64,000 nt of DNA from Escherichia coli (GCF_001677475.2 NZ_CP015229.1); one strand, 5' to 3'; positions 17,901 through 64,000 are shown, numbered from the stretch's first letter. The notes: a model not told the origin generated them from the sequence alone. Numbers and translations: made by a program.

Positions 17901-19180
17901 TGAAACTGATCGACGAATTCGGTCGTACCAAAGAAAGCTACAAAGTGCCTTACGGTGCGGTACTGGCGAAAGGCGATGGCGAACAGGTTGCTGGTGGCGA
18001 AACCGTTGCAAACTGGGACCCGCACACCATGCCGGTTATCACCGAAGTAAGCGGTTTTGTACGCTTTACTGACATGATCGACGGCCAGACCATTACGCGT
18101 CAGACCGACGAACTGACCGGTCTGTCTTCGCTGGTGGTTCTGGATTCCGCAGAACGTACCGCAGGTGGTAAAGATCTGCGTCCGGCACTGAAAATCGTTG
18201 ATGCTCAGGGTAACGACGTTCTGATCCCGGGTACCGATATGCCTGCGCAGTACTTCCTGCCGGGTAAAGCGATTGTTCAGCTGGAAGATGGCGTACAGAT
18301 CAGCTCTGGTGACACCCTGGCGCGTATTCCGCAGGAATCCGGCGGTACCAAGGACATCACCGGTGGTCTGCCGCGCGTTGCGGACCTGTTCGAAGCACGT
18401 CGTCCGAAAGAGCCGGCAATCCTGGCTGAAATCAGCGGTATCGTTTCCTTCGGTAAAGAAACCAAAGGTAAACGTCGTCTGGTTATCACCCCGGTAGATG
18501 GTAGCGATCCGTACGAAGAGATGATTCCGAAATGGCGTCAGCTCAACGTGTTTGAAGGTGAACGTGTAGAACGTGGTGACGTAATTTCCGACGGTCCGGA
18601 AGCGCCGCACGACATTCTGCGTCTGCGTGGTGTTCATGCTGTTACTCGTTACATCGTTAACGAAGTACAGGACGTATACCGTCTGCAGGGCGTTAAGATT
18701 AACGATAAACACATCGAAGTTATCGTTCGTCAGATGCTGCGTAAAGCTACCATCGTTAACGCGGGCAGCTCCGACTTCCTGGAAGGCGAACAGGTTGAAT
18801 ACTCTCGCGTCAAGATCGCAAACCGCGAACTGGAAGCGAACGGCAAAGTGGGTGCAACTTACTCCCGCGATCTGCTGGGTATCACCAAAGCGTCTCTGGC
18901 AACCGAGTCCTTCATCTCCGCGGCATCGTTCCAGGAGACCACTCGCGTGCTGACCGAAGCAGCCGTTGCGGGCAAACGCGACGAACTGCGCGGCCTGAAA
19001 GAGAACGTTATCGTGGGTCGTCTGATCCCGGCTGGTACCGGTTACGCGTATCACCAGGATCGTATGCGTCGCCGTGCTGCGGGTGAAGCTCCGGCTGCAC
19101 CGCAGGTGACTGCAGAAGACGCATCTGCCAGCCTGGCAGAACTGCTGAACGCAGGTCTGGGCGGTTCTGATAACGAGTAA
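14957..19180 (+). CDS. rpoC: DNA-directed RNA polymerase subunit beta'
   Basis: 1407-aa ORF starting GTG ([17 protein letters not shown]...), zinc-binding Cys cluster, NADFDGD active site. Confidence 0.98.
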
Positions 19181-19201
19181 TCGTTAATCCGAAAATAACG
19201 T

Positions 19202-19228
19202 AAAAACCCGCTTCGGCGGGTTTTTTTA
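19202..19228 (+). terminator. rpoC intrinsic terminator
   Basis: Hairpin AAAAACCCGCUUCGGCGGGUUUUUUUA 22 nt after the rpoC stop. Confidence 0.85.
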
Positions 19229-19261
19229 TGGGAGTTATTCAGAGGGCAAAGTCTTCACGGG

Positions 19262-19308
19262 AAATATTAAGAAAGGCAGGGCGAAACGAGGAAGAAGCTT
19301 TTCGCCCT
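19262..19308 (-). terminator. Putative terminator of the thi operon
   Basis: Minus-strand hairpin CAGGGCGAAA...UUUCGCCCUG followed by a U-rich tract downstream of the thiH stop. Confidence 0.4.
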
Positions 19309-19421
19309 GGACAACATTCCTGCTGACGGCACTACCATAAAAAAACACAACGCTTTCAACAACCTTGCGTTTTTCATCTTCCGGAGCTGCTCGGAATAAA
19401 TTTACGTTCTTACATTCCGTC

Positions 19422-20555
19422 TCATGGCCTTTGCGAGGCGCGTCCCAGATAGCTGTCCCAGTCTTTCCATACCGGCTGCAAACCCTGAGCGGTTAACGCG
19501 GCAGCAACCGCTTCCGGTCTGCGATCGTCGTGTGGTGAGAACTGTTCCAGCTCGGGGTGATTGTCGGCATAACCCCCTGGCTGCGTTTTCGAGAAGGCGC
19601 TGACGTTATTGATCGCCAGCGGAATAACGCGATCGCGAAACCACGGTGATTCCCGCGTGGAGAGTGACAGTTCAATCTCCGGTGCAAGCAGTCGGAAGGC
19701 GCAGATGGTTTGCACTAACTGGCGTTCATCCATAATCGACGCAGGCTCAATGCCGCCAGTACACGGGCGCAGGCGCGGAAAGGAGACAGAGTAACGGCTT
19801 TGCCAGTAATGCTGTTGCAGCCATAGCAAATGTTCGGCAACCATATAGCAGTCAACGCGCCAGCTGTCGGAAAGGCCAATTAGCGCGCCGAGGCCTATCT
19901 TATCAATCCCCGCACACCCCAGCCGATCCGGCGTTTCCAGCCGCCAGAAGAAGTCCTGTTTTTTGCCTTTCAGATGATGACGGGCATATGTCGCCTCGTG
20001 ATACGTCTCCTGATAAACCATCACCCCATCGAGACCAAGCTGTTTTAGCTCGGCATATTCCGCCTCCGCCAGCGGTTGCACTTCCAGCTGTAGTGAAGAG
20101 AACTGTTCACGCAGGGCAGGAAGATGACGACGAAAGTAATCCATCCCCACTTTCGCCTGATGTTCACCAGTGACTAATAGCAGATGTTCAAAGCCCATCT
20201 CCCGTATAGCGGCGCTTTCCCTGGCAATATCCGCTTCATCCAGCGTTTTGCGCTTGATGCGGTTGCTCATGGAAAATCCGCAGTACGTGCAGTCGTTAGC
20301 GCAAAGATTGGAAAGATAAAGCGGGACGTAAAGACTGACAACGTTGCCAAATCGTTGACGGGTCAGACGCTGCGCCCGTTGGGCCAGTGGTTCCAGATAG
20401 CCACTGGCGGCTGGCGATAACAGCGCCATCATATCGTCGCGGGTGAGTTGCGAGGCATTTAGCGCCCGCTCTACGTCAGCAGCCGTTTTGCTGTTGATAT
20501 GCAGGCGGATGTCGTCCCAGTCCAGTTGTCGCCAGCGATCGCTGAAGGTTTTCAT
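19422..20555 (-). CDS. thiH: 2-iminoacetate synthase (radical SAM, thiazole biosynthesis)
   Basis: 377-aa ORF with CxxxCxxC radical-SAM motif ([10 protein letters not shown]). Confidence 0.95.
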
Positions 20556-51942: not shown

Positions 51943-52103
51943 TTTTTATTGTTAGCTAATGCAATAGTTGCTGAACTGATCCGATGAGTTAATGTTGAAC
52001 AAATCTCATGTTGCGTGGTGGTCGCTTTTACCACAGATGCGTTTATGCCAGTATGGTTTGTTGAATTTTTATTAAATCTGGGTTGAGCGTGTCGGGAGCA
52101 AGT

Positions 52104-55787
<3,684 letters not shown>

Positions 55788-55817
55788 TTCACAAATCTGT
55801 CACTTTTCCTTACAACA

Positions 55818-55852
55818 AACAGGGCGCTCAATGAGTGCCCTGTCTCTTTATT
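55818..55852 (+). terminator. metH intrinsic terminator
   Basis: Hairpin CAGGGCGCUCAAUGAGUGCCCUG followed by UCUCUUUAUU. Confidence 0.75.
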
Positions 55853-56006
55853 AATATGAAACACTTATACTGGAAACAGGCTGGAATAATCTTAGCCGGA
55901 AAAACGAATGTCAAAAGGCACAGTAAAGATGCCAGTCAGCGTGTTTCCGGTCCTTTGGTCATTCAATTGCTTCAGGAACATATAACGATAAGGAGAACCT
56001 GAACTC

Positions 56007-57638
56007 GTGTTAACGCTGCTTCACCTGCTTTCTGCCGTCGCCCTGCTGGTCTGGGGGACTCATATTGTTCGAACCGGCGTAATGCGCGTCTTCGGCGCGC
56101 GTTTGCGTACTGTCCTTAGCCGGAGCGTCGAAAAAAAGCCGCTCGCCTTTTGCGCGGGGATCGGCGTTACCGCACTGGTGCAGAGCAGTAATGCCACCAC
56201 CATGCTGGTGACCTCGTTCGTCGCTCAGGATCTGGTAGCCCTCGCACCGGCTCTGGTGATTGTGCTGGGTGCAGATGTCGGGACGGCGCTAATGGCGCGT
56301 ATTCTCACCTTCGACTTATCCTGGCTGTCACCATTACTTATTTTTATCGGCGTGATTTTTTTCCTCGGACGCAAACAGTCACGCGCCGGGCAACTGGGCC
56401 GCGTCGGTATTGGTCTTGGGCTGATTTTACTGGCGCTGGAGTTGATTGTGCAGGCCGTAACGCCGATCACTCAGGCAAACGGCGTTCAGGTGATCTTTGC
56501 CTCGCTGACTGGCGACATTTTGCTGGATGCGCTGATTGGTGCGATGTTCGCCATTATCAGCTACTCCAGCCTTGCTGCTGTACTGCTGACCGCGACTTTG
56601 ACCGCCGCAGGCATTATCTCTTTCCCAGTGGCGCTTTGTCTGGTGATTGGGGCAAACCTCGGTTCCGGCCTGCTGGCGATGCTCAACAACAGTGCCGCCA
56701 ATGCCGCAGCCCGCCGTGTCGCGCTGGGTAGTCTGCTGTTTAAGCTGGTGGGTAGCCTGATTATCCTGCCGTTTGTCCATTTGCTGGCAGAGACAATGGG
56801 GAAGTTGTCATTGCCAAAAGCGGAACTGGTGATCTATTTCCACGTCTTCTACAACCTTGTACGTTGCCTGGTCATGCTGCCATTTGTTGACCCGATGGCA
56901 CGGTTTTGCAAAACGATTATTCGCGATGAACCGGAACTGGATACCCAGCTACGGCCTAAACATCTGGATGTCAGCGCGCTGGATACGCCCACGCTTGCTC
57001 TGGCGAACGCCGCGCGCGAAACCCTGCGCATTGGCGACGCCATGGAACAGATGATGGAAGGGTTGAATAAAGTGATGCACGGCGAGCCACGGCAGGAGAA
57101 AGAGCTGCGTAAGCTGGCAGATGATATCAACGTTCTCTATACCGCCATTAAGCTGTATCTGGCGCGGATGCCAAAAGAAGAGCTGGCGGAGGAAGAGTCG
57201 CGCCGCTGGGCGGAGATCATCGAAATGTCGCTCAACCTTGAACAGGCCTCCGATATCGTCGAGCGCATGGGGAGTGAAATTGCCGACAAATCACTGGCAG
57301 CACGGCGGGCATTTTCGCTTGATGGGTTGAAGGAACTGGATGCGCTCTATGAGCAATTGCTCAGTAATTTAAAGCTGGCAATGTCGGTGTTCTTCTCTGG
57401 CGATGTCACCAGCGCTCGTCGTTTGCGCCGCAGCAAGCATCGCTTTCGCATTCTTAATCGCCGCTATTCCCACGCCCACGTCGATCGCCTGCATCAGCAA
57501 AACGTGCAAAGCATTGAAACCAGTTCGCTACATTTAGGCTTACTGGGAGATATGCAGCGTCTGAACTCGCTGTTTTGTTCGGTGGCTTACAGTGTGCTGG
57601 AACAGCCGGATGAAGATGAAGGACGGGACGAGTATTAA
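56007..57638 (+). CDS. yjbB: Na+/phosphate-symporter-family membrane protein (PhoU-like C-terminal domain)
   Basis: 543-aa ORF starting GTG, multiple TM segments. Confidence 0.92.
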   Translation: MLTLLHLLSAVALLVWGTHIVRTGVMRVFGARLRTVLSRSVEKKPLAFCAGIGVTALVQSSNATTMLVTSFVAQDLVALAPALVIVLGADVGTALMARILTFDLSWLSPLLIFIGVIFFLGRKQSRAGQLGRVGIGLGLILLALELIVQAVTPITQANGVQVIFASLTGDILLDALIGAMFAIISYSSLAAVLLTATLTAAGIISFPVALCLVIGANLGSGLLAMLNNSAANAAARRVALGSLLFKLVGSLIILPFVHLLAETMGKLSLPKAELVIYFHVFYNLVRCLVMLPFVDPMARFCKTIIRDEPELDTQLRPKHLDVSALDTPTLALANAARETLRIGDAMEQMMEGLNKVMHGEPRQEKELRKLADDINVLYTAIKLYLARMPKEELAEEESRRWAEIIEMSLNLEQASDIVERMGSEIADKSLAARRAFSLDGLKELDALYEQLLSNLKLAMSVFFSGDVTSARRLRRSKHRFRILNRRYSHAHVDRLHQQNVQSIETSSLHLGLLGDMQRLNSLFCSVAYSVLEQPDEDEGRDEY

Positions 57639-57652
57639 TATTGTGAATCCTG

Positions 57653-57723
57653 TAGGCCTGATAAGACGCGTCAAGCGTCGCATCAGGCACTATGAACAAG
57701 ATGCCGGATCATGCATCCGGCAA
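57653..57723. repeat. REP elements between convergent yjbB and pepE
   Basis: GTAGGCCTGATAAGACGCGTCAAGCGTCGCATCAGGC and GATGCCGGATCATGCATCCGGCA match REP consensus families. Confidence 0.75.
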
Positions 57724-57728
57724 TTCAC

Positions 57729-58418
57729 TTAAAAACGGTGACCTGCTTCCAGCGGCACCGCTTCTTCACCAGCTTTAAACACATAAGTGGTGTTCGGGCC
57801 ACCCAGCGTAGCGTGACCTTTACTCACCGTGATCCAGTTACCTTCCGGTAGACCAATAATTGTGAGTTCTGGCGCGACGACCAGCAGTTCGCGAATACGC
57901 TGCTCACGGGTTTCACCTTTATGGCCTTCCGGCAGCGCGTTGGTGAAGTGCGGGTTGATTTGCAGCGGGAACAGATTCAGCGCATCGAAACCTTGCGGAT
58001 CGACAATCGGCATATCGTTGGTGGTACGAATGGTTGGGCAAGCAAGGTTAGCGCCTGCGCTCCAGCCAACATACAGCGCGCCACGTTTAACCACGTCAGT
58101 AATTGGTGCCAGCAGCCCGCGCTCGCGGCACTGTTTCAGCAACTGGAAAGTATTACCGCCGCCGACAATCACGATCTCAGCATTTTCAATCGCGGCAACG
58201 GGATCGACAACGCTATGAATACCGGTGACAGAAACACCCAGCGGAGCGAGAACCGCAGCCGTTTTCGCTGTGTAATCATCCCAGGTCTGCGTTACGCCCG
58301 CGAAAGGAATAAATACCGCTGAACGGCGACCCTGCAACTGTTCAGCAATTAGCGGCAGTGCATGTTCCAGCCAGGCTTTACCCGGCAGCGTCGAGTTACT
58401 CAATAAAAGCAGTTCCAT
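57729..58418 (-). CDS. pepE: Dipeptidase E (alpha-aspartyl dipeptidase)
   Basis: 229-aa [31 protein letters not shown]... Confidence 0.95.
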
Positions 58419-58543
58419 TACTTCTCCGGTTAGTAAGAAATCACGGAAGGAATGCTACCACTGCGAATTTAACCACTTACTGACATGGCTCACGATGTCA
58501 CGTATTGCACCGGGCGCTGAGACTGATGACAAACACAGCATTG

Positions 58544-58641
58544 CCTGATGCGCTACGCTTACCAGGCCTACCAGATAACTGCAATATATTGAATTTTCGA
58601 GATTATGTATGCCGAATAAGGCTTCATTCCGCATCCGGCAT
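58544..58641. repeat. BIME-like pair of inverted REP elements in the pepE-sorE spacer
   Basis: GCCTGATGCGCTACGCTTACCAGGCCTAC and ATGCCGAATAAGGCTTCATTCCGCATCCGGCAT in opposite orientation. Confidence 0.7.
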
Positions 58642-58799
58642 AAACAATGTGCACTTTGCCACCAATTTGAGCGCCCCTTAAGGCGCTGATGTTTTTTATC
58701 CTTCTCGTGCAAATTGTGCTGCTTCAGCAATCAGCCGCACATCAGGTCGCGAAGTTGCCGCGGCGACCAGCCAGCGACATGCAGAGTTAAGTAGCGCGA

Positions 58800-60029
58800 T
58801 TAATCATGGGAAATTGCCTCTGCATGGGCGAGCAGGTATTGCTCCGCCTCACCGGACCAGATCCCCTGATGACGCGCCAGAATCGCCGCCAGTGCTTGAT
58901 CCTGAATCTGCGTGAGTGACGTCAGCGGCAGGTATTTCCCGGTATACACCAGCTTTTTGCCGCCGCCGACGGCAGGCAATTCAAGCGTGGTTTCGCCCGC
59001 GGCATTCAGCCCAAGAATATGTGTTACCACTTTTGCGGCCTGCACTTTTTTCTCTTCAATCAATTTGACCGCTGCGCGCATGTCGTCGGTATTGCCGCCT
59101 GACGTGCCCACGTAGTGGGTAAATGCATAATGCACATCGTAGAAATTAATTGGCGCGCTGAAATGTTTATCCTGCGGTCCGGCGAAGAAATTCAGGCAAC
59201 CATCCGTCGCCAGCAAGGAAGAGGCGAGAGTCACCAGTCCTTCATTAGGCACAAAGACGAAAATATCATCGAAGCCGTGACCGCCACTCAGCGCCATTAA
59301 CGTATCAAATGCTGCATCGGTGGCATTGAGATAATGAATCAGTGTTTGCGGTTCTGATGGATAGTGCTTCCGCGCATAACTCAATTTATCGTTGTCGGTA
59401 TCGGTAATGACGAGCAGCGACGGGTTAACGGGTCCATGTAGCGCATAATCAATCGCCAACAGTCCCATTGGTCCGGTGCCGCCGAGGATCAGCGTGCGCC
59501 CTTGCGGGCGAATCCCCATCGTGTGGTTATAACTACCTTCCTGAAGATGATAGTTGGCGTTGAACGCGCCAATCACGCAGGAAAGCGGTTCAACCAGCGA
59601 GCCTTCAAAATAGGTTTCGCCGTCGTATGCCAGCAGGCAATCTTGTTCCATGACCTCGTTGGGAATAACTACATGCGTGGCTTCGCCGCCTACCCACGGG
59701 AAGGAGTAGCCGGGGCAGTCCGGGCGGTCGGGGAGTTGCAGGTTGGCCTGAATCACATAACGCTGACCCGGCTGGAATTTGTGCTGCCACTTTTTACCCA
59801 CGGCCAGAATATCGCCGCAAAACTCGTGGCCGATGATGATTGGGTTGGTCGCCACATCGTCGGGTACTTTTTTATGGTTTTCACCCAGATTGGCCTCTTT
59901 CCAGGAAGAGAGGCACAGGCTGTCAGTGACCACCGTCGCGAGGATTTCATCCTCCTGCATTTCAGGAAGATCAAAGGTTTCCAGGCGTAAATCACGTTTA
60001 CCATAAAGACGCAGAGCTGTTGTTTTCAT
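58800..60029 (-). CDS. sorE: L-sorbose-1-phosphate reductase (Zn-dependent dehydrogenase family)
   Basis: ORF track 413 aa; start set to ATG with GAGGTGG 6 nt upstream giving 409 aa (MKTTALRLYGKRDLRLETF...); last gene of a PTS operon. Confidence 0.85.
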   Translation of the reverse strand: MKTTALRLYGKRDLRLETFDLPEMQEDEILATVVTDSLCLSSWKEANLGENHKKVPDDVATNPIIIGHEFCGDILAVGKKWQHKFQPGQRYVIQANLQLPDRPDCPGYSFPWVGGEATHVVIPNEVMEQDCLLAYDGETYFEGSLVEPLSCVIGAFNANYHLQEGSYNHTMGIRPQGRTLILGGTGPMGLLAIDYALHGPVNPSLLVITDTDNDKLSYARKHYPSEPQTLIHYLNATDAAFDTLMALSGGHGFDDIFVFVPNEGLVTLASSLLATDGCLNFFAGPQDKHFSAPINFYDVHYAFTHYVGTSGGNTDDMRAAVKLIEEKKVQAAKVVTHILGLNAAGETTLELPAVGGGKKLVYTGKYLPLTSLTQIQDQALAAILARHQGIWSGEAEQYLLAHAEAISHD

Positions 60030-60080
60030 AAACCACCTCATGTTGAGCTATGGCCCCGGCAGTCGTGCCGGGGCGAAGAA

Positions 60081-60905
60081 TCAGGACAGGAAGCCCAGCG
60101 CATTGCCGATAATCCCTAAGCCAAACAGGGCGAAAATCAGCCATACCGGGTTAATTTTTTTGTTAAGCAGACGAACCATCAGTAGCGTCAGACCGAGCGC
60201 CAGCAAACCAGGGCAAAGTTGGTCGAGAATGTTCTGCACGGTCATGGTGACGGTGGAGCCATCGGCGGCATGCGTTTGTGAAACCACCAACGGTACGTTG
60301 ATTGACGTCCATTTGGTGACCAGCACGCCCATCACAAACAGTCCGAGAATCGACGCGCCTTCGGTGAGTTTTTGCAGCACATTCCCGCCCATATCGCTGA
60401 CGATATTCACCCCTTTGCGAAAGCCGAGCTGTAGGCCATACCACTTCATCGCCAGACGCACCGCATTGAAAATAAAGAAAAACAAAAGCGGGCCGAGGAT
60501 GTTGCCCGAAAGTGCCAGAGATGCGCCGAGCGCAGCGGTAATCGGGCGCAGCGTTCCCCAGACCAGTGGATCGCCAACTCCTGCCAATGGTCCCATCAGA
60601 CCGACTTTGATGCCGTTAATGGTACCGTCATCAATTTCCGCGCCGTTGGCCCGCGCCTCTTCCATGGCGGCAGTGACGCCGATGACCGGGCCACATACGG
60701 CTGGCGTGGTATTGAAGAACACCAGGTGTCGCCTGAGCGCCGCAACCTGATCCTCTTTTAATGGGTAAAGTCGCTTGATGGCGGGGATCATGTCGTAGCA
60801 AAAAACCAGCCCGTGAATACGTTCAAAGTTAAAGGACGCCTGTTGCAGGTTGGAGCGCAGAAACATGCTCACCAGATCGCTGCGTGTAATTTTTCTCTGT
60901 TCCAT
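60081..60905 (-). CDS. sorM: PTS mannose/sorbose-family EIID component
   Basis: ORF track 284 aa from TTG; start set to ATG with GGAG upstream giving 274 aa; IID-type membrane protein. Confidence 0.85.
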   Translation of the reverse strand: MEQRKITRSDLVSMFLRSNLQQASFNFERIHGLVFCYDMIPAIKRLYPLKEDQVAALRRHLVFFNTTPAVCGPVIGVTAAMEEARANGAEIDDGTINGIKVGLMGPLAGVGDPLVWGTLRPITAALGASLALSGNILGPLLFFFIFNAVRLAMKWYGLQLGFRKGVNIVSDMGGNVLQKLTEGASILGLFVMGVLVTKWTSINVPLVVSQTHAADGSTVTMTVQNILDQLCPGLLALGLTLLMVRLLNKKINPVWLIFALFGLGIIGNALGFLS

Positions 60906-60915
60906 GATGGCTCCG

Positions 60916-61713
60916 TTAATCGTCAAGTTGGTCAAGGGCGGTGGAGGCGGTGGCCTGGAGTTGAGGTTCAGCTTTACGCCACTGTGGATTTAGCTGGATG
61001 TAGACCAGGGCCATGATCACGCCGACGCCACCGAACGCCAGCAGACTGAGATCGAGGTAGCCACCTGCGAGGAAACCGAGGAAAAAGAAAGGCATCAAAT
61101 ATTTCACGCCCATCATACGTAGCACCATGGCGTAACCGACCACCACGATAAAACCGCCAGCAATTTGCAGACCTCGGGTCACAAATTCGGGAATGGCGTT
61201 TAACATATTGCTGACCATATCGGCGCTGACGAACAGCGAGACAATCAGTGCCGGAATGGCGACGCGCAGCGCCTGCACGCCAAGCGCGGAGACATGCAGA
61301 ATATCGAGAGTGCGAAACCGCGCCTCTTCTGCTGCTTTATCCGCCGCGTGCTGGAACACTACGGTGATGGTACGGGCAAACACAGTCAGCACCTGGCCTG
61401 CCGCAGCCACAGGCAACGCGATGGCGATTCCGGTGGCGATGCTTTGCTGACCAACGATAACCAGAATGGCGGAGATTATGCTGGCGAGTGCAGAATCTGG
61501 AGATTGCGCCGCGCCGACGTTCATCCAGCCGAGAGCTATCAATTCCAGCGTACCGCCGAGTATTATTCCGGTTTTTAAATCACCGAGAATTAAACCAATC
61601 ACCGTACAGGCAATTAACGGGCGATGAGTCTGAAATTCATCCAGCACGCTGCCCATTCCGGCAATACAGGAAAAAAGAAATATAGCAATAATTTGTAGGG
61701 TACTTATTTCCAT
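60916..61713 (-). CDS. sorA: PTS mannose/sorbose-family EIIC component
   Basis: 265-aa hydrophobic ORF (MEISTLQIIAIFLFSCIAGMGSVLDEF...). Confidence 0.88.
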   Translation of the reverse strand: MEISTLQIIAIFLFSCIAGMGSVLDEFQTHRPLIACTVIGLILGDLKTGIILGGTLELIALGWMNVGAAQSPDSALASIISAILVIVGQQSIATGIAIALPVAAAGQVLTVFARTITVVFQHAADKAAEEARFRTLDILHVSALGVQALRVAIPALIVSLFVSADMVSNMLNAIPEFVTRGLQIAGGFIVVVGYAMVLRMMGVKYLMPFFFLGFLAGGYLDLSLLAFGGVGVIMALVYIQLNPQWRKAEPQLQATASTALDQLDD

Positions 61714-61778
61714 GATTTGTCACCTTTTAAGTGTCGTCATCCCTGCCTGTTAAAGCATATGTACACAGGCGCTATTAT

Positions 61779-62273
61779 TTAATTTGCGATTAACTGTTCG
61801 TTTATTTTGTCGATAATATTGATTGAGGGATCTGACGCTACGACGCGTAAATCCAGTATGACGCCAAGATTATTTAACTCATGAAATGCGTTAATATCAT
61901 CATCATCTAATGAAACCGCTTTGGTTAACTGTTTTTTACCGGGCCGCCAGGCCATGCCGCCAATATTCAGGGTGTCTATTTTTACCCCCTGGCGAACCAT
62001 CGCTAAGGCATCCTGTGGGCGAGTGAAAAGATAAAAAACGGTTTCGTCCTGATATTGCGGGTTGTGATAAACCGCGACGGCTTTTTCAATATTGACCACG
62101 TTAACCTTCATTCCCGGTGGCGCAGCCTGACGCAATAATGTCCGGCGCACTTCATCGTTATAAACTTCGTCATTGCAGATAATAATGCGCTGGGCGTTAG
62201 CCACTTTCGACCAGACGGTAGTGACCTGGCCGTGGATCAGGCGGTCATCAATGCGGGCGAGCGTAATGTTCAT
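61779..62273 (-). CDS. sorB: PTS mannose/sorbose-family EIIB component
   Basis: 164-aa ORF with IIB phospho-His motif RIDDRLIHGQV. Confidence 0.88.
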   Translation of the reverse strand: MNITLARIDDRLIHGQVTTVWSKVANAQRIIICNDEVYNDEVRRTLLRQAAPPGMKVNVVNIEKAVAVYHNPQYQDETVFYLFTRPQDALAMVRQGVKIDTLNIGGMAWRPGKKQLTKAVSLDDDDINAFHELNNLGVILDLRVVASDPSINIIDKINEQLIAN

Positions 62274-62680
62274 CAGAAATCCTCCTCTGCTGTTGCCACC
62301 TGTCTCCAGACGACGCAGGTTTGCTTTGCGATTTGCGTCAGGTGTTCACACAGTTCATCAACATTCATGCTGTCCTGGTTATCAACCAGTTCGAGCGCCA
62401 GCGGCAGAGAAAGGCCGCTGATTACCCGCAGACGAGGATTGCGCATCGCAAGCATCGCTGCCGCATTCCACGGGCTGCCGCACTGTAAATCCACGGCGAT
62501 TAGCCACTCGTCATGATTGTGAATGCTCACTAACTTCTCCAGCTTTGCCACAATGTCTCCGGCGTTCTCGCCGGGCACAAATTCAACGGCTTCAACATTG
62601 GCGTTGCCGTAAACCATCTGAACCGATTCCAGCATGGCGCAAGCTAATTTGCCGTGGGCACAAAAAATGGCGTTGACCAT
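62273..62680 (-). CDS. sorF: PTS mannose/sorbose-family EIIA component
   Basis: 135-aa ORF (MVNAIFCAHGKLA...); stop overlaps the sorB start. Confidence 0.86.
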   Translation of the reverse strand: MVNAIFCAHGKLACAMLESVQMVYGNANVEAVEFVPGENAGDIVAKLEKLVSIHNHDEWLIAVDLQCGSPWNAAAMLAMRNPRLRVISGLSLPLALELVDNQDSMNVDELCEHLTQIAKQTCVVWRQVATAEEDF

Positions 62681-62689
62681 AAAGCCTCC

Positions 62690-63496
62690 TTATCCGCGTG
62701 TTTTGCCGCCCGCAATGTTAGTGGTTACTCCGGTGATGTAGCTGGCGCGTTCAGACAGCAGATAACAAACAAAATCAGCGACTTCTGCTAATCTTCCGGC
62801 GCGCCCAATAGGAATGGCGTTTTTGGTATAGCCTTCACGCAGCTGCTCGACGGTGATATTGCGCGTCCACGCCAGCGCTTCTTCATATTCCGGCGTGCGC
62901 AGTCCTGTTTTTTCCAGAATCCCCGGCGCGATACCGACCACACGGATACCGTGCTTACCCAGCTCTTTCGACCAGGAACGAGTGAAGCTATTGAGCGCAG
63001 CTTTAGTGGCGGCGTAGCAGCTCTGGCCTTCTGAGCCTTCCAGCCCACTTTCTGAGGAAACATTCACAATCACGCCATCGTGTTGTTTGACCATCTGTCG
63101 CGCCACCGCCTGCGACATCAGAAAAACGCCTTTCTGGTTGATATTGACCATTTTTTCGAATGCAGCTTCGTTGAGTTCATACTGCCCGGCAGGCGCTTTC
63201 TCATCGACCAGCAGACGCGGGAAATTGACCCCGGCGTTATTGACCAGACCGTCGATGCGATCAAAACGCTGGATAATTTCCGCTACCGTATGATTTACCT
63301 CTTTGGCGCTGGAAATATCGGTCGGCCAAAACTGATAGCCTTTATGACCTTCATATTGTCCATCGCCACCGTGAATATCGACCATCTGTACATTCGCGCC
63401 TTGTGCTAATAATTCCTCTACAATCGCCAGACCAATACCGGATGCGCCGCCGGTGACGATAATGATTTTATCCTGCAAATTTAACCACGTTTGCAT
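62690..63496 (-). CDS. sorD: Sorbitol(glucitol)-6-phosphate 2-dehydrogenase (short-chain dehydrogenase/reductase)
   Basis: 268-aa ORF with TGGASGIG cofactor motif and YxxxK catalytic pair. Confidence 0.86.
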   Translation of the reverse strand: MQTWLNLQDKIIIVTGGASGIGLAIVEELLAQGANVQMVDIHGGDGQYEGHKGYQFWPTDISSAKEVNHTVAEIIQRFDRIDGLVNNAGVNFPRLLVDEKAPAGQYELNEAAFEKMVNINQKGVFLMSQAVARQMVKQHDGVIVNVSSESGLEGSEGQSCYAATKAALNSFTRSWSKELGKHGIRVVGIAPGILEKTGLRTPEYEEALAWTRNITVEQLREGYTKNAIPIGRAGRLAEVADFVCYLLSERASYITGVTTNIAGGKTRG

Positions 63497-63565
63497 AACA
63501 GACTCCTGATTTTAGATAATAGGGACCCGCCGTAATTTTTATTACGGTAAACATCGGGAAGATTT

Positions 63566-64000
63566 TTATTTCAGTAATAGTTCAGCTGTGCTGCTATTCG
63601 TTACCAGACAATTAATATATTTTCCACGCAGTGCACCAACAATTCCGCTGTATTTTTCTTCACTCATGGCAATGCCAATGGAATATCGTGCCTGCTTTAA
63701 TTTATTCATTTCGATAGAGAGTGTTTTTTCGCTCATATTCGTTTCAACCATTGCGCCGTGAATATCAAAAAAGCGCGAGCAAATATCGCCAGCAACCTGG
63801 CGGGCATTCAGGTCGTCACTCTCTTCACCACCATAAAACGCATGCCAGTTAGCGCCGTCGCGAATGGCCGGTGAGCCAATTCCCACCAGGGCGACATCCA
63901 GATTATCCCAGTAGGCAGAGATGGTTTTAAAGTGCTGAGACTGCATGATCCCATTACGAATTAATGGGTTATCCAGCAGAGCCGGAAAATCCGCGAGATG
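63566..64000 (-). CDS. sorC: SorC-family transcriptional regulator of the sor operon, C-terminal part only (5' end beyond the window)
   Basis: Reading frame stays open from 63566 to the window end (...HLADFPALLDNPLIRNGIMQSQHFKTISAYWDNLDVALVGIGSPA...); sugar-phosphate-binding domain of SorC/DeoR type. Confidence 0.75.
   Translation of the reverse strand, partial: HLADFPALLDNPLIRNGIMQSQHFKTISAYWDNLDVALVGIGSPAIRDGANWHAFYGGEESDDLNARQVAGDICSRFFDIHGAMVETNMSEKTLSIEMNKLKQARYSIGIAMSEEKYSGIVGALRGKYINCLVTNSSTAELLLK

What the first reader, a model, noticed from the sequence alone, without database searches (positions are those of the whole stretch)
58800..64000. Accessory L-sorbose PTS operon (sorCDFBAME) downstream of pepE
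Seven minus-strand genes form a complete mannose-family PTS (EIIA 135 aa, EIIB 164 aa with RIDDRLIHGQ, EIIC 265 aa, EIID 274 aa) flanked by an SDR dehydrogenase (sorD), a Zn-dependent reductase (sorE) and a SorC-type regulator. This is the gene order of the Klebsiella/E. coli sor operon. In the K-12 reference, pepE is followed directly by rluF, so this is strain-variable cargo inserted at the pepE locus. It is known biology rather than novel, but it is the main accessory block in the window and its distal junction lies beyond the window end.
Basis: partly seen in the sequence, partly recalled or inferred. Interest (0 to 1): 0.4.

Follow-up and report, generated by a model that had tools for sequence, protein, structure and literature searches.

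The report
Known L-sorbose operon, ancestral not inserted
This is the well-known E. coli operon for taking up and burning the sugar L-sorbose; it is ordinary, except that comparison with other genera shows it is an old resident of this site that K-12 lost, not cargo that this strain gained.

Summary
Window 58800-64000 (minus strand) carries sorE, sorM (EIID, 274 aa), sorA (EIIC, 265), sorB (EIIB, 164, RIDDRLIHGQ), sorF (EIIA, 135), sorD (SDR, 268) and the last ~144 of 315 codons of sorC, which the window end cuts.

The proteins are 97-100% identical to the E. coli CFT073 operon, which was cloned and shown to confer growth on L-sorbose. SorB matches the solved K. pneumoniae SorB far better than ManX.

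The "inserted cargo" reading is not supported. The order lysC-yjbD-rluF-sorCDFBAME-sdhL-pepE-yjbB-metH recurs in other Escherichia species, Citrobacter, Pseudocitrobacter, Klebsiella, Raoultella and Enterobacter. Synonymous divergence of the sor genes tracks that of the flanking core genes. No repeats or mobility genes flank the block.

E. coli is essentially biallelic here: 2865 of 5426 complete genomes are sor+, and 2557 carry the K-12 allele, in which 6.3-6.9 kb is replaced by an unrelated 80-bp filler.

That gene is intact after sorE in most other genera and in 177 E. coli genomes.

Verdict: already known biology, low interest.

The parts
57729..58418 (-). pepE (dipeptidase E), a conserved core gene flanking the locus
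   Evidence: ORF of 229 aa. NF003642 PepE, 356 bits against a cut-off of 156. Annotated as pepE in Ch1, K-12 and CFT073.
58499..58500 (.). Left boundary of the DNA absent from K-12; sequence shared with sor-negative genomes ends here
   Evidence: sor-negative genomes match the query only up to position 900-909, which is window 58499-58508. K-12 aligns with the window only up to this point. Relative to the sdhL-intact allele, shared sequence continues to about 58516.
58543..58639 (.). Pair of inverted REP elements (BIME-like), lying inside a ~170-bp segment (58509-58679) that is absent from the sdhL-intact allele
   Evidence: 58607-58639 (minus strand) fits the REP consensus that recurs in other intergenic regions of CFT073; 58543-58561 is the start of a shorter REP-like copy on the plus strand; this segment has no counterpart in L004.
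58670..58697 (+). G+C-rich hairpin followed by a T-run (terminator-like on the plus strand), just outside the sdhL remnant
   Evidence: This is a consensus match only; its function was not tested.
58696..58807 (-). Remnant of sdhL (shikimate-dehydrogenase-like gene, HI0607 family). The first ~20 codons (58750-58807) carry a TAA at codon 7. The last ~13-17 codons (58696 to about 58734-58745) also survive, while ~716 bp in between are deleted. The ATG overlaps the sorE stop in the sequence ATGATTAA.
   Evidence: window 58750-58830 aligns with L004 4696-4776, and window 58680-58734 with L004 3925-3979. Translations read INRAT*LCMSLAGR... and ...RPDVRLIAEAAQFAREG*, against intact SdhL MINRDTQLCMSLAGRPGNFG...VRPDAQLIAEAAQFAREG*.
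58800..60029 (-). sorE, L-sorbose-1-phosphate reductase (medium-chain dehydrogenase family), 409 aa
   Evidence: RefSeq annotates the orthologue as sorE; 99.3% aa identity to CFT073 c4981, with GHE and GTGPMG motifs present. Pfam ADH_N and ADH_zinc_N (weak hits). PMC12817954: a sorE knock-out abolishes sorbose use.
60081..60905 (-). sorM, EIID of the sorbose PTS, 274 aa
   Evidence: TIGR00828, 467 bits against a cut-off of 293; 98.2% identity to CFT073 c4982; carries G34V at a column invariant in 37 orthologues; this exact protein is on record in 61 blocks of the assembly index.
60916..61713 (-). sorA, EIIC of the sorbose PTS, 265 aa
   Evidence: TIGR00822, 424 bits against a cut-off of 340; 97.0% identity to CFT073 c4983.
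61779..62273 (-). sorB, EIIB of the sorbose PTS, 164 aa, with the phosphorylated-histidine motif RIDDRLIHGQ
   Evidence: 304 bits to K. pneumoniae SorB (PDB 1NRZ) against 171 bits to the ManX IIB domain. TIGR00854; motif at residues 7-16.
62273..62680 (-). sorF, EIIA of the sorbose PTS, 135 aa; its stop overlaps the sorB start by 1 nt
   Evidence: TIGR00824, 148 bits against a cut-off of 98; 97.0% identity to CFT073 c4985, with AHG at residues 8-10.
62690..63496 (-). sorD, D-glucitol-6-phosphate dehydrogenase (short-chain dehydrogenase), 268 aa
   Evidence: PRK06171, 499 bits against a cut-off of 304. TGGASGIG and YAATK motifs present, 98.5% identity to CFT073 c4986. G79D at a column invariant in 34 orthologues; this exact protein is on record in 101 blocks of the assembly index.
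63566..64000 (-). sorC, 3' part only (about the last 144 of 315 codons: part of the sugar-binding domain). The HTH domain, promoter and operators lie beyond the window end.
   Evidence: 143/143 aa identical to CFT073 c4987; the full-length orthologue scores 612 bits to K. pneumoniae SorC (PDB 2W48); in the assembly 100% identical to the window, sorC is an intact 315-aa gene (L093 1984-2931).

Best explanation
The region is the chromosomal L-sorbose utilisation operon sorCDFBAME of E. coli, at its usual place between pepE and rluF.

Mechanism (established for the Klebsiella and E. coli sor system; inferred here by orthology):
1. SorF (EIIA) and SorB (EIIB) relay phosphate from PEP, via EI and HPr, to the membrane pair SorA/SorM (EIIC/EIID).
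2. SorA/SorM import L-sorbose as L-sorbose-1-phosphate.
3. SorE reduces that to D-glucitol-6-phosphate.
4. SorD oxidises D-glucitol-6-phosphate to fructose-6-phosphate, which enters glycolysis.
5. SorC, the first gene, controls the operon in response to sorbose.

The block is not an insertion. It is an old, vertically inherited part of this neighbourhood in Enterobacteriaceae. E. coli carries two alleles at the site. One is sor+. The other, found in K-12 and in most of phylogroups A and B1, has the whole block replaced by an unrelated 80-bp sequence.

The ancestral block had an eighth gene, sdhL, overlapping the sorE stop by 8 nt. In this window, as in about 94% of sor+ E. coli, sdhL is reduced to its two ends and a REP pair has been inserted beside it.
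For: Identity as sor:
- Gene content, order and sizes match.
- SorB scores 304 bits to K. pneumoniae SorB (1NRZ) against 171 bits to ManX IIB.
- SorC scores 612 bits to K. pneumoniae SorC (2W48).
- The proteins are 97.0-100% identical to CFT073 c4981-c4987. That operon was cloned into DH5alpha and conferred growth on L-sorbose (PMC2831201). The published cloning primer matches window 58770-58799 exactly.

Integrity:
- Six full-length ORFs, with short gaps or overlaps typical of an operon.
- Catalytic and cofactor motifs are present.
- dN/dS is 0.01-0.15 against five comparators.

Ancestral position:
- Among 35 Enterobacterales sor loci, rluF lies immediately upstream of sorC in most, including Escherichia whittamii, Escherichia sp. 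MOD1-EC7003, Pseudocitrobacter, Citrobacter, Klebsiella, Raoultella and Enterobacter. In those, pepE/yjbB/metH follow downstream.
- dS of the sor genes tracks dS of yjbB and pepE: versus E. whittamii 0.22-0.42 against 0.28-0.44, and versus Citrobacter 0.8-1.9 against 1.0-1.3.
- No flanking direct or inverted repeats, no mobility genes among the annotated features, and GC of 51-58% over most of the block, like the flanks.

Two alleles:
- 2865 genomes hold at least 80% of the block. 2557 hold the 80-bp filler, 2546 of them at 99% identity or better. Together these are 5422 of 5426.
- PMC12817954 reports the operon in more than 86% of genomes in every phylogroup except A (9.6%) and B1 (12.1%).

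sdhL:
- It is intact and overlaps the sorE stop in 29 of 35 enterobacterial loci and in 177 E. coli genomes.
- The remnant was mapped in the window.
Against: - No phenotype is available for this strain.
- The sorC 5' half and the promoter are outside the window. They are intact only by inference from an assembly identical to the window over the overlap.
- SorM G34V and SorD G79D fall at positions invariant in 34-37 orthologues from other strains and genera, so reduced activity cannot be excluded. However, both exact proteins recur in many assemblies with different nucleotide backgrounds, which argues they are tolerated.
- The K-12 allele is not a clean deletion. Its 80-bp filler matches nothing in the replaced DNA, so how the loss happened is unexplained.
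- Outgroups lacking sor (for example Salmonella) were not examined. 'Ancestral' therefore means at least as old as the common ancestor of the genera listed, not proven for the whole family.
- The published statement that Shigella carries the operon but does not use sorbose (PMC2831201) shows that presence does not guarantee the phenotype.
Confidence: 0.9

Rival explanations
1. One reading: the sor block is horizontally acquired, strain-specific cargo that inserted between pepE and rluF in this lineage, and K-12 shows the ancestral empty site.
For: The block is present in only 53% of complete E. coli genomes and absent from K-12. GC drops to 42-45% around sorB and sorC. Recent papers speak of strains having 'acquired' the operon (PMC13410766).
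Against: Synteny is the same in at least six genera. Synonymous divergence equals that of the flanking core genes. No repeats, integrase, IS or tRNA occur at either junction. The 'empty' K-12 site is not empty: it carries an 80-bp filler absent from sor+ alleles. Published counts show the operon in more than 86% of genomes outside phylogroups A and B1 (PMC12817954).
Confidence: 0.05
2. The genes are a mannose- or fructose-type PTS (a manXYZ paralogue) with associated dehydrogenases, not a sorbose system.
For: EIID also passes the NCBIfam 'PTS mannose transporter subunit IID' subfamily cut-off (411 bits against 365). RefSeq names the PTS subunits only generically. A sorAM knock-out still used sorbose through other PTSs (PMC12817954), so specificities in this family overlap.
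Against: EIIA and EIIB are separate proteins, unlike the fused ManX. SorB is much closer to K. pneumoniae SorB than to ManX (304 against 171 bits). The system is linked to sorE and sorD, whose products only make sense for sorbose-1-phosphate. It is 97-100% identical to an operon shown to confer sorbose growth (PMC2831201).
Confidence: 0.02
3. The operon is present but cryptic or impaired in this particular strain, for example through SorM G34V, SorD G79D or a defect beyond the window. The strain would then be Sor-negative, as reported for Shigella.
For: The two substitutions lie at columns invariant in 34-37 orthologues. Operon decay is seen in relatives: sorE is split in E. albertii and Escherichia sp. 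MOD1-EC7003, and sorD is split in strain SCPM-O-B-8794. Shigella carries sor genes but did not use sorbose (PMC2831201).
Against: All in-window ORFs are intact. The exact SorM and SorD variants occur in 61 and 101 blocks of the assembly index, including loci only 94-98% identical in DNA, which is what tolerated polymorphisms look like. sorC is intact in the identical assembly. The 64-kb window has no IS element (collinear with strain Ch1), which by my own reasoning from general knowledge of Shigella genomes is atypical for Shigella.
Confidence: 0.12

Closest known systems
E. coli CFT073 sor operon c4981-c4987 (cloned; confers growth on L-sorbose; PMC2831201)
   Same: Same seven genes, same order and same chromosomal site. 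The pepE-sorE spacer is the same length (381 bp) and contains the published cloning-primer site. Protein identity is 97.0-100%.
   Different: There are 3-8 amino-acid differences per protein, including SorM G34V and SorD G79D. The window contains only the 3' part of sorC.
Klebsiella pneumoniae sorCDFBAME operon (the originally characterised system; structures SorB 1NRZ and SorC 2W48)
   Same: Same gene order and the same inferred pathway (sorbose to sorbose-1-P to glucitol-6-P to fructose-6-P). SorB and SorC align end to end with the solved Klebsiella proteins. Other Klebsiella species carry the operon at the same rluF-pepE site.
   Different: About 74-96% aa identity to Klebsiella and Raoultella orthologues, with SorF the least conserved. 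Klebsiella-group loci keep an intact sdhL after sorE, whereas the window has only its remnant.
E. coli ST648 / phylogroup F sor locus with sdhL (PMC12817954)
   Same: Same operon and site. The window still carries both ends of the same sdhL gene.
   Different: In ST648-type genomes sdhL is intact (270 aa; 177 of 5426 genomes) and is induced by sorbose. Here it is destroyed by a ~716-bp deletion and a stop codon. The paper treats sdhL as an ST-specific insertion, but cross-genus synteny indicates it is a retained ancestral gene.
E. coli manXYZ mannose PTS
   Same: Same PTS family (IIA, IIB, IIC and IID domains) and the same phosphorelay logic.
   Different: ManX is a fused IIAB protein. manXYZ has no linked sorE, sorD or sorC. 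The sequence match is weaker.

Membership tests
L-sorbose PTS operon (sorCDFBAME) | Seven genes in the order regulator, SDR dehydrogenase, EIIA, EIIB, EIIC, EIID, MDR reductase, all on one strand | tested here: met
   Gaps range from -1 to 69 nt. sorC is only partly inside the window.
L-sorbose PTS operon (sorCDFBAME) | Orthology to the characterised K. pneumoniae Sor proteins rather than to Man or Aga systems | tested here: met
   SorB scores 304 bits to 1NRZ against 171 bits to ManX IIB. SorC scores 612 bits to 2W48.
L-sorbose PTS operon (sorCDFBAME) | Near-identity to an E. coli operon with experimentally shown function | tested here: met
   97.0-100% aa identity to CFT073 c4981-c4987. Function shown in PMC2831201 and PMC12817954.
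L-sorbose PTS operon (sorCDFBAME) | Chromosomal location in the iclR-metH-pepE neighbourhood | tested here: met
   the order is iclR-metH-yjbB-pepE-sor-rluF.
L-sorbose PTS operon (sorCDFBAME) | Confers growth on or fermentation of L-sorbose, inducible by sorbose | not testable with these tools
   Needs the strain itself. Only the orthologous operons were tested, by others.
Mannose-family PTS (IIA/IIB/IIC/IID) | All four domains present, with the conserved phospho-histidines of IIA and IIB | tested here: met
   TIGR00824, TIGR00854, TIGR00822 and TIGR00828 all score above their cut-offs. His in RIDDRLIHGQ of IIB and AHG at residues 8-10 of IIA are present.
Horizontally inserted genomic island | Mobility genes, flanking direct repeats or a tRNA/att site at the junctions | tested here: not met
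   No flanking repeats. No integrase, transposase or tRNA among the annotated features of the locus.
Horizontally inserted genomic island | Absent from the same site in related species; divergence out of step with the flanks | tested here: not met
   Present at the same site in at least six genera. dS of the sor genes matches dS of yjbB and pepE.
SdhL (HI0607-type shikimate-dehydrogenase-like protein): applies to the remnant at 58696-58807 | Full-length ~270-aa protein orthologous to H. influenzae HI0607 | tested here: not met
   The intact allele in L004 scores 378 bits to 1NPY. The window copy keeps only ~20 N-terminal and ~13-17 C-terminal codons, with a stop at codon 7. It is a pseudogene remnant.

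The most novel reading that the evidence does not exclude
The enterobacterial sor operon is ancestrally an eight-gene unit, sorCDFBAME-sdhL. The orphan enzyme SdhL (HI0607 family, physiological substrate unknown) has its start codon overlapping the sorE stop and acts on a sorbose-related ketose or its phosphate. A distant family member in the PDB is a 5-ketofructose reductase; that this enzyme yields L-sorbose is my recollection, not something checked here. Most E. coli, including this strain, lost sdhL without losing growth on sorbose. The sdhL in ST648/phylogroup F is therefore a retained ancestral gene, not an insertion. The structural part (eighth gene, 8-nt overlap, remnant in the window) is shown here. 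The enzymatic role is speculation.
Probability: 0.3. Interest if true: 0.35.

Novelty: already known. Interest (0 to 1): 0.12.

Why it matters
The operon itself adds nothing new. It has been characterised in Klebsiella, verified in E. coli CFT073, and recently tied to fitness and virulence of high-risk E. coli clones (PMC12817954, PMC13410766).

Two small points may be useful. A 2026 paper lists as unresolved how E. coli 'acquired' the operon. The cross-genus synteny and matching synonymous divergence found here indicate it was inherited and then lost in the K-12-like lineages, so enrichment in pathogens reflects loss in phylogroups A and B1 rather than gain. Second, the remnant of sdhL in the common E. 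coli allele shows that the sorbose-induced sdhL of ST648 is ancestral. This gives an orphan enzyme family a genomic context that could guide substrate testing.

Tried and rejected
- Flanking repeats: searched at the junctions of the 6.3-kb block in a complete sor+ locus. Only short chance matches were found.
- Composition: profiled to look for an island signature. Only a mild dip at sorB and sorC.
- Origin of the 80-bp K-12 filler: tested whether it derives from the replaced DNA or from the sorC-rluF spacer. The local alignment score was no better than shuffles (166 of 200 and 484 of 500 shuffles reached it). blastn-short found no hit for filler positions 97-176 in any held locus. A search of E. 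coli genomes found one copy per sor-negative genome and no other source.
- Signature of an imported sor-negative haplotype: compared rluF, yjbD and pepE alleles. K-12 rluF is unusually divergent (95.4-96.2%) from all other E. coli, including another sor-negative strain, so the pattern does not track the sor state.
- RNA families: an Rfam scan of 57600-64000 found only a sub-threshold naRNA4/REP match at 57655-57722, between yjbB and pepE, and nothing in the sor block.
- Promoter: the scan of the sorC upstream region in the identical assembly found no sigma-70 consensus, only a repeated near-palindrome.
- SorM G34V and SorD G79D as possible inactivating changes: downgraded after finding the exact proteins in many assemblies with different backgrounds.
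- Missing yjaZ as a possible anomaly: it is a common polymorphism.

Full report
**What is in the sequence**

The ORF list for 55000-64000 shows metH (52083-55787, +), yjbB (56007-57638, +) and pepE (57729-58418, -), followed by a run of minus-strand ORFs.
- 58800-60041: sorE. The RefSeq start gives 58800-60029, 409 aa.
- 60081-60905: EIID, 274 aa from the ATG.
- 60916-61713: EIIC, 265 aa.
- 61779-62273: EIIB, 164 aa.
- 62273-62680: EIIA, 135 aa.
- 62690-63496: SDR dehydrogenase, 268 aa.
- A regulator gene with its stop at 63566, running off the window end.

Gaps between these genes range from -1 to 69 nt, as expected for an operon. NCBIfam puts the four PTS proteins above the curated cut-offs of the mannose/fructose/sorbose IIA, IIB, IIC and IID models, the SDR above PRK06171 (sorbitol-6-phosphate dehydrogenase), and pepE above its equivalog. 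The motif RIDDRLIHGQ sits at SorB residues 7-16, and the SDR and MDR cofactor and catalytic motifs are present.

**Is it sor rather than man?**

- SorB scores 304 bits against the solved K. pneumoniae SorB (1NRZ) and 171 bits against the IIB domain of ManX.
- A full-length SorC orthologue scores 612 bits against K. pneumoniae SorC (2W48). The window's SorC fragment is 143/143 identical to that of CFT073.
- All seven proteins are 97.0-100% identical to E. coli CFT073 c4981-c4987.
[quoted passage not shown] The authors report 82-97% protein similarity to the Klebsiella operon (PMC2831201). Their forward cloning primer matches window 58770-58799 exactly.
- Knock-outs of sorE and a knock-in of the operon into an ST10 strain confirm the pathway in E. 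coli (PMC12817954). A 2026 study links it to fitness and virulence (PMC13410766).

**How it works**

This is inferred by orthology from the established Klebsiella and E. coli system.
1. EI and HPr phosphorylate SorF (EIIA), which passes the phosphate to SorB (EIIB).
2. SorA/SorM (EIIC/EIID) take up L-sorbose as L-sorbose-1-phosphate.
3. SorE reduces that to D-glucitol-6-phosphate.
4. SorD oxidises D-glucitol-6-phosphate to fructose-6-phosphate.
5. SorC, the first gene, both represses and activates the operon.

In the assembly identical to the window, the sorC upstream spacer has no sigma-70 consensus. It does contain a repeated near-palindrome, GCACAAATGTGC. Both observations would fit activator dependence and SorC operators, but neither was tested.

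**Insertion or loss?**

Megablast of 57600-64000 against 5426 complete E. coli genomes finds at least 80% of the query in 2865 of them. In the rest, the match stops at query position 900-909, which is window 58499-58508.

In K-12, pepE and rluF are 211 bp apart. Alignment shows that 95 bp of K-12 are replaced by 6326 bp in the sor+ strain Ch1. Compared with the sdhL-intact allele, 15 of those 95 bp are shared, which leaves an 80-bp K-12-specific filler. The filler occurs once in each of 2557 genomes, in 2546 of them at 99% identity or better. Because 2865 + 2557 = 5422 of 5426, the site is essentially biallelic.

The filler has no detectable similarity to any part of the replaced DNA. No direct or inverted repeats flank the block, no mobility genes are annotated, and composition is unremarkable apart from a dip to 42-45% GC near sorB and sorC.

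The decisive evidence comes from other species. A scan of one genome per species with SorE returned 35 Enterobacterales sor loci. Mapping 14 proteins onto them gives lysC-yjbD-rluF-sorC-D-F-B-A-M-E-sdhL-pepE-yjbB-metH in these taxa:
- Escherichia whittamii, Escherichia sp. MOD1-EC7003 and a divergent E. coli.
- Three Pseudocitrobacter and eight or more Citrobacter.
- Six Klebsiella and four Raoultella.
- Several Enterobacter-like genomes.

The E. albertii contig is consistent with this order from sorA onward.

Nei-Gojobori estimates show that synonymous divergence of the sor genes tracks that of yjbB and pepE.
- Versus E. whittamii: 0.22-0.42 for sor against 0.28-0.44 for the flanks.
- Versus Citrobacter: 0.8-1.9 against 1.0-1.3.
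- Versus Klebsiella: 0.8-2.4 against 1.1-1.4.

dN/dS is 0.01-0.15 throughout.

This is the pattern of a vertically inherited, selectively maintained block, so the K-12 state is a loss. It agrees with published counts: the operon is in more than 86% of genomes in every phylogroup except A (9.6%) and B1 (12.1%) (PMC12817954).

A minority allele (strain JBEHAAB-19-0176, L004) has an eighth gene annotated as shikimate 5-dehydrogenase (270 aa). It overlaps the sorE stop by 8 nt, in the sequence ATGATTAA. It is a clear orthologue of H. influenzae HI0607/SdhL (378 bits to 1NPY). It is intact in 177 complete E. coli genomes, including SMS-3-5, and follows sorE in 29 of the 35 enterobacterial loci.

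The window keeps only its ends.
- 58750-58807 encodes M-INRAT*LCMSLAGR, with Q7 changed to a stop.
- 58680-58734 aligns with the 3' end and downstream sequence of intact sdhL. Within it, 58696 to about 58745 encodes ...RPDVRLIAEAAQFAREG*.
- About 716 bp in between are deleted.

Next to the remnant, 58509-58679 is an insertion relative to L004. It contains two inverted REP elements and a terminator-like hairpin. CFT073 has a spacer of the same 381-bp length. All sor+ rows sampled across the identity range align to the window in one piece, so this decayed form is the common one.

PMC12817954 notes sdhL as present only in ST648, induced by sorbose, and describes such differences as ST-specific insertions. 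The remnant and the cross-genus synteny indicate instead that sdhL is ancestral and was deleted in most E. coli.

**State of the operon in this strain**

The window is 100% identical over 6825 and 4311 bases to contig ABOZJW010000006.1 of assembly GCA_033753315.1. There, sorC is an intact 315-aa gene, followed by a 347-bp spacer and rluF. That places the far junction about 826 bp beyond the window end.

Comparing each protein with 34-37 orthologues finds just two residues unique to the window at otherwise invariant columns: SorM G34V and SorD G79D. Both exact proteins are on record in many assemblies (61 and 101 index blocks), including loci only 94-98% identical in DNA. They look like tolerated polymorphisms, but an effect on activity cannot be excluded without a growth test.

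Decay does happen in relatives: sorE is split in E. albertii and in Escherichia sp. MOD1-EC7003, and sorD is split in strain SCPM-O-B-8794.

**Verdict**

This is the known E. coli L-sorbose operon at its known site, intact as far as the window shows.

Novelty: already known. The modest additions are three:
- The direction of the polymorphism: an ancestral block, with loss in the K-12-like allele through replacement by an unexplained 80-bp filler.
- The recognition of an sdhL remnant.
- The two unusual substitutions, SorM G34V and SorD G79D.

Interest is low.

Noticed in passing
window 58696-58807 (remnant); intact copy at L004 3941-4753: An eighth gene, sdhL (an HI0607-type shikimate-dehydrogenase-like enzyme of unknown substrate), follows sorE with an 8-nt overlap in most enterobacterial genera and in 177 E. 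coli genomes. The window keeps only its two ends, with a stop at codon 7. The PDB hit list for SdhL includes a distant family member annotated as 5-ketofructose reductase (7COK, 63 bits); a link to sorbose chemistry is my own speculation.
   Followed up: partly
K-12 locus L002 3916-3995 (the sor-negative allele; not in the window): The sor-negative allele is not a clean deletion. An 80-bp sequence with no similarity to the replaced 6.3-6.9 kb sits at the junction. It is a single near-identical copy in 2557 of 5426 genomes, and its origin is unexplained.
   Followed up: partly
window 60804-60806 (SorM codon 34) and 63260-63262 (SorD codon 79): SorM G34V and SorD G79D fall at columns invariant in 34-37 orthologues across genera. 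Yet the exact proteins recur in many public assemblies with different nucleotide backgrounds, so they are probably tolerated polymorphisms. Any functional effect is untested.
   Followed up: partly
window 19181-19421: yjaZ (htrC) is missing between rpoC (stop codon ends at 19180) and thiH (stop codon at 19422-19424). About 28 bp stand in place of ~950 bp in strain Ch1. The same rpoC-thiH junction is found in 1633 of 5426 complete E. coli genomes, so it is a common polymorphism.
   Followed up: yes
window 57655-57722: The REP element between yjbB and pepE gives a sub-threshold Rfam match to naRNA4 (47 bits against a gathering score of 59.5).
   Followed up: no
L093 1810-1968 (sorC upstream spacer, ~350-510 bp beyond the window end): A near-palindrome, GCACAAATGTGC, occurs two to three times upstream of sorC, and no sigma-70 consensus promoter is found. 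These are candidate SorC operators at an activator-dependent promoter.
   Followed up: no
L042 (E. albertii), L044 (Escherichia sp. MOD1-EC7003), L008 (E. coli SCPM-O-B-8794), L009: Independent decay of sor genes in relatives: sorE is split in L042 and L044, sorD is split in L008, and sdhL is split in L009. This suggests the operon is often under relaxed selection.
   Followed up: no
L002 4031-4903 (K-12 rluF) compared with other E. coli: K-12 rluF is only 95.4-96.2% identical to rluF of five other E. coli, including another sor-negative strain. Neighbouring genes are 97-99% identical. This looks like a local recombinant patch unrelated to the sor state. K-12 and the window lineage also carry ~130 bp between rluF and yjbD that Ch1 lacks.
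   Followed up: partly
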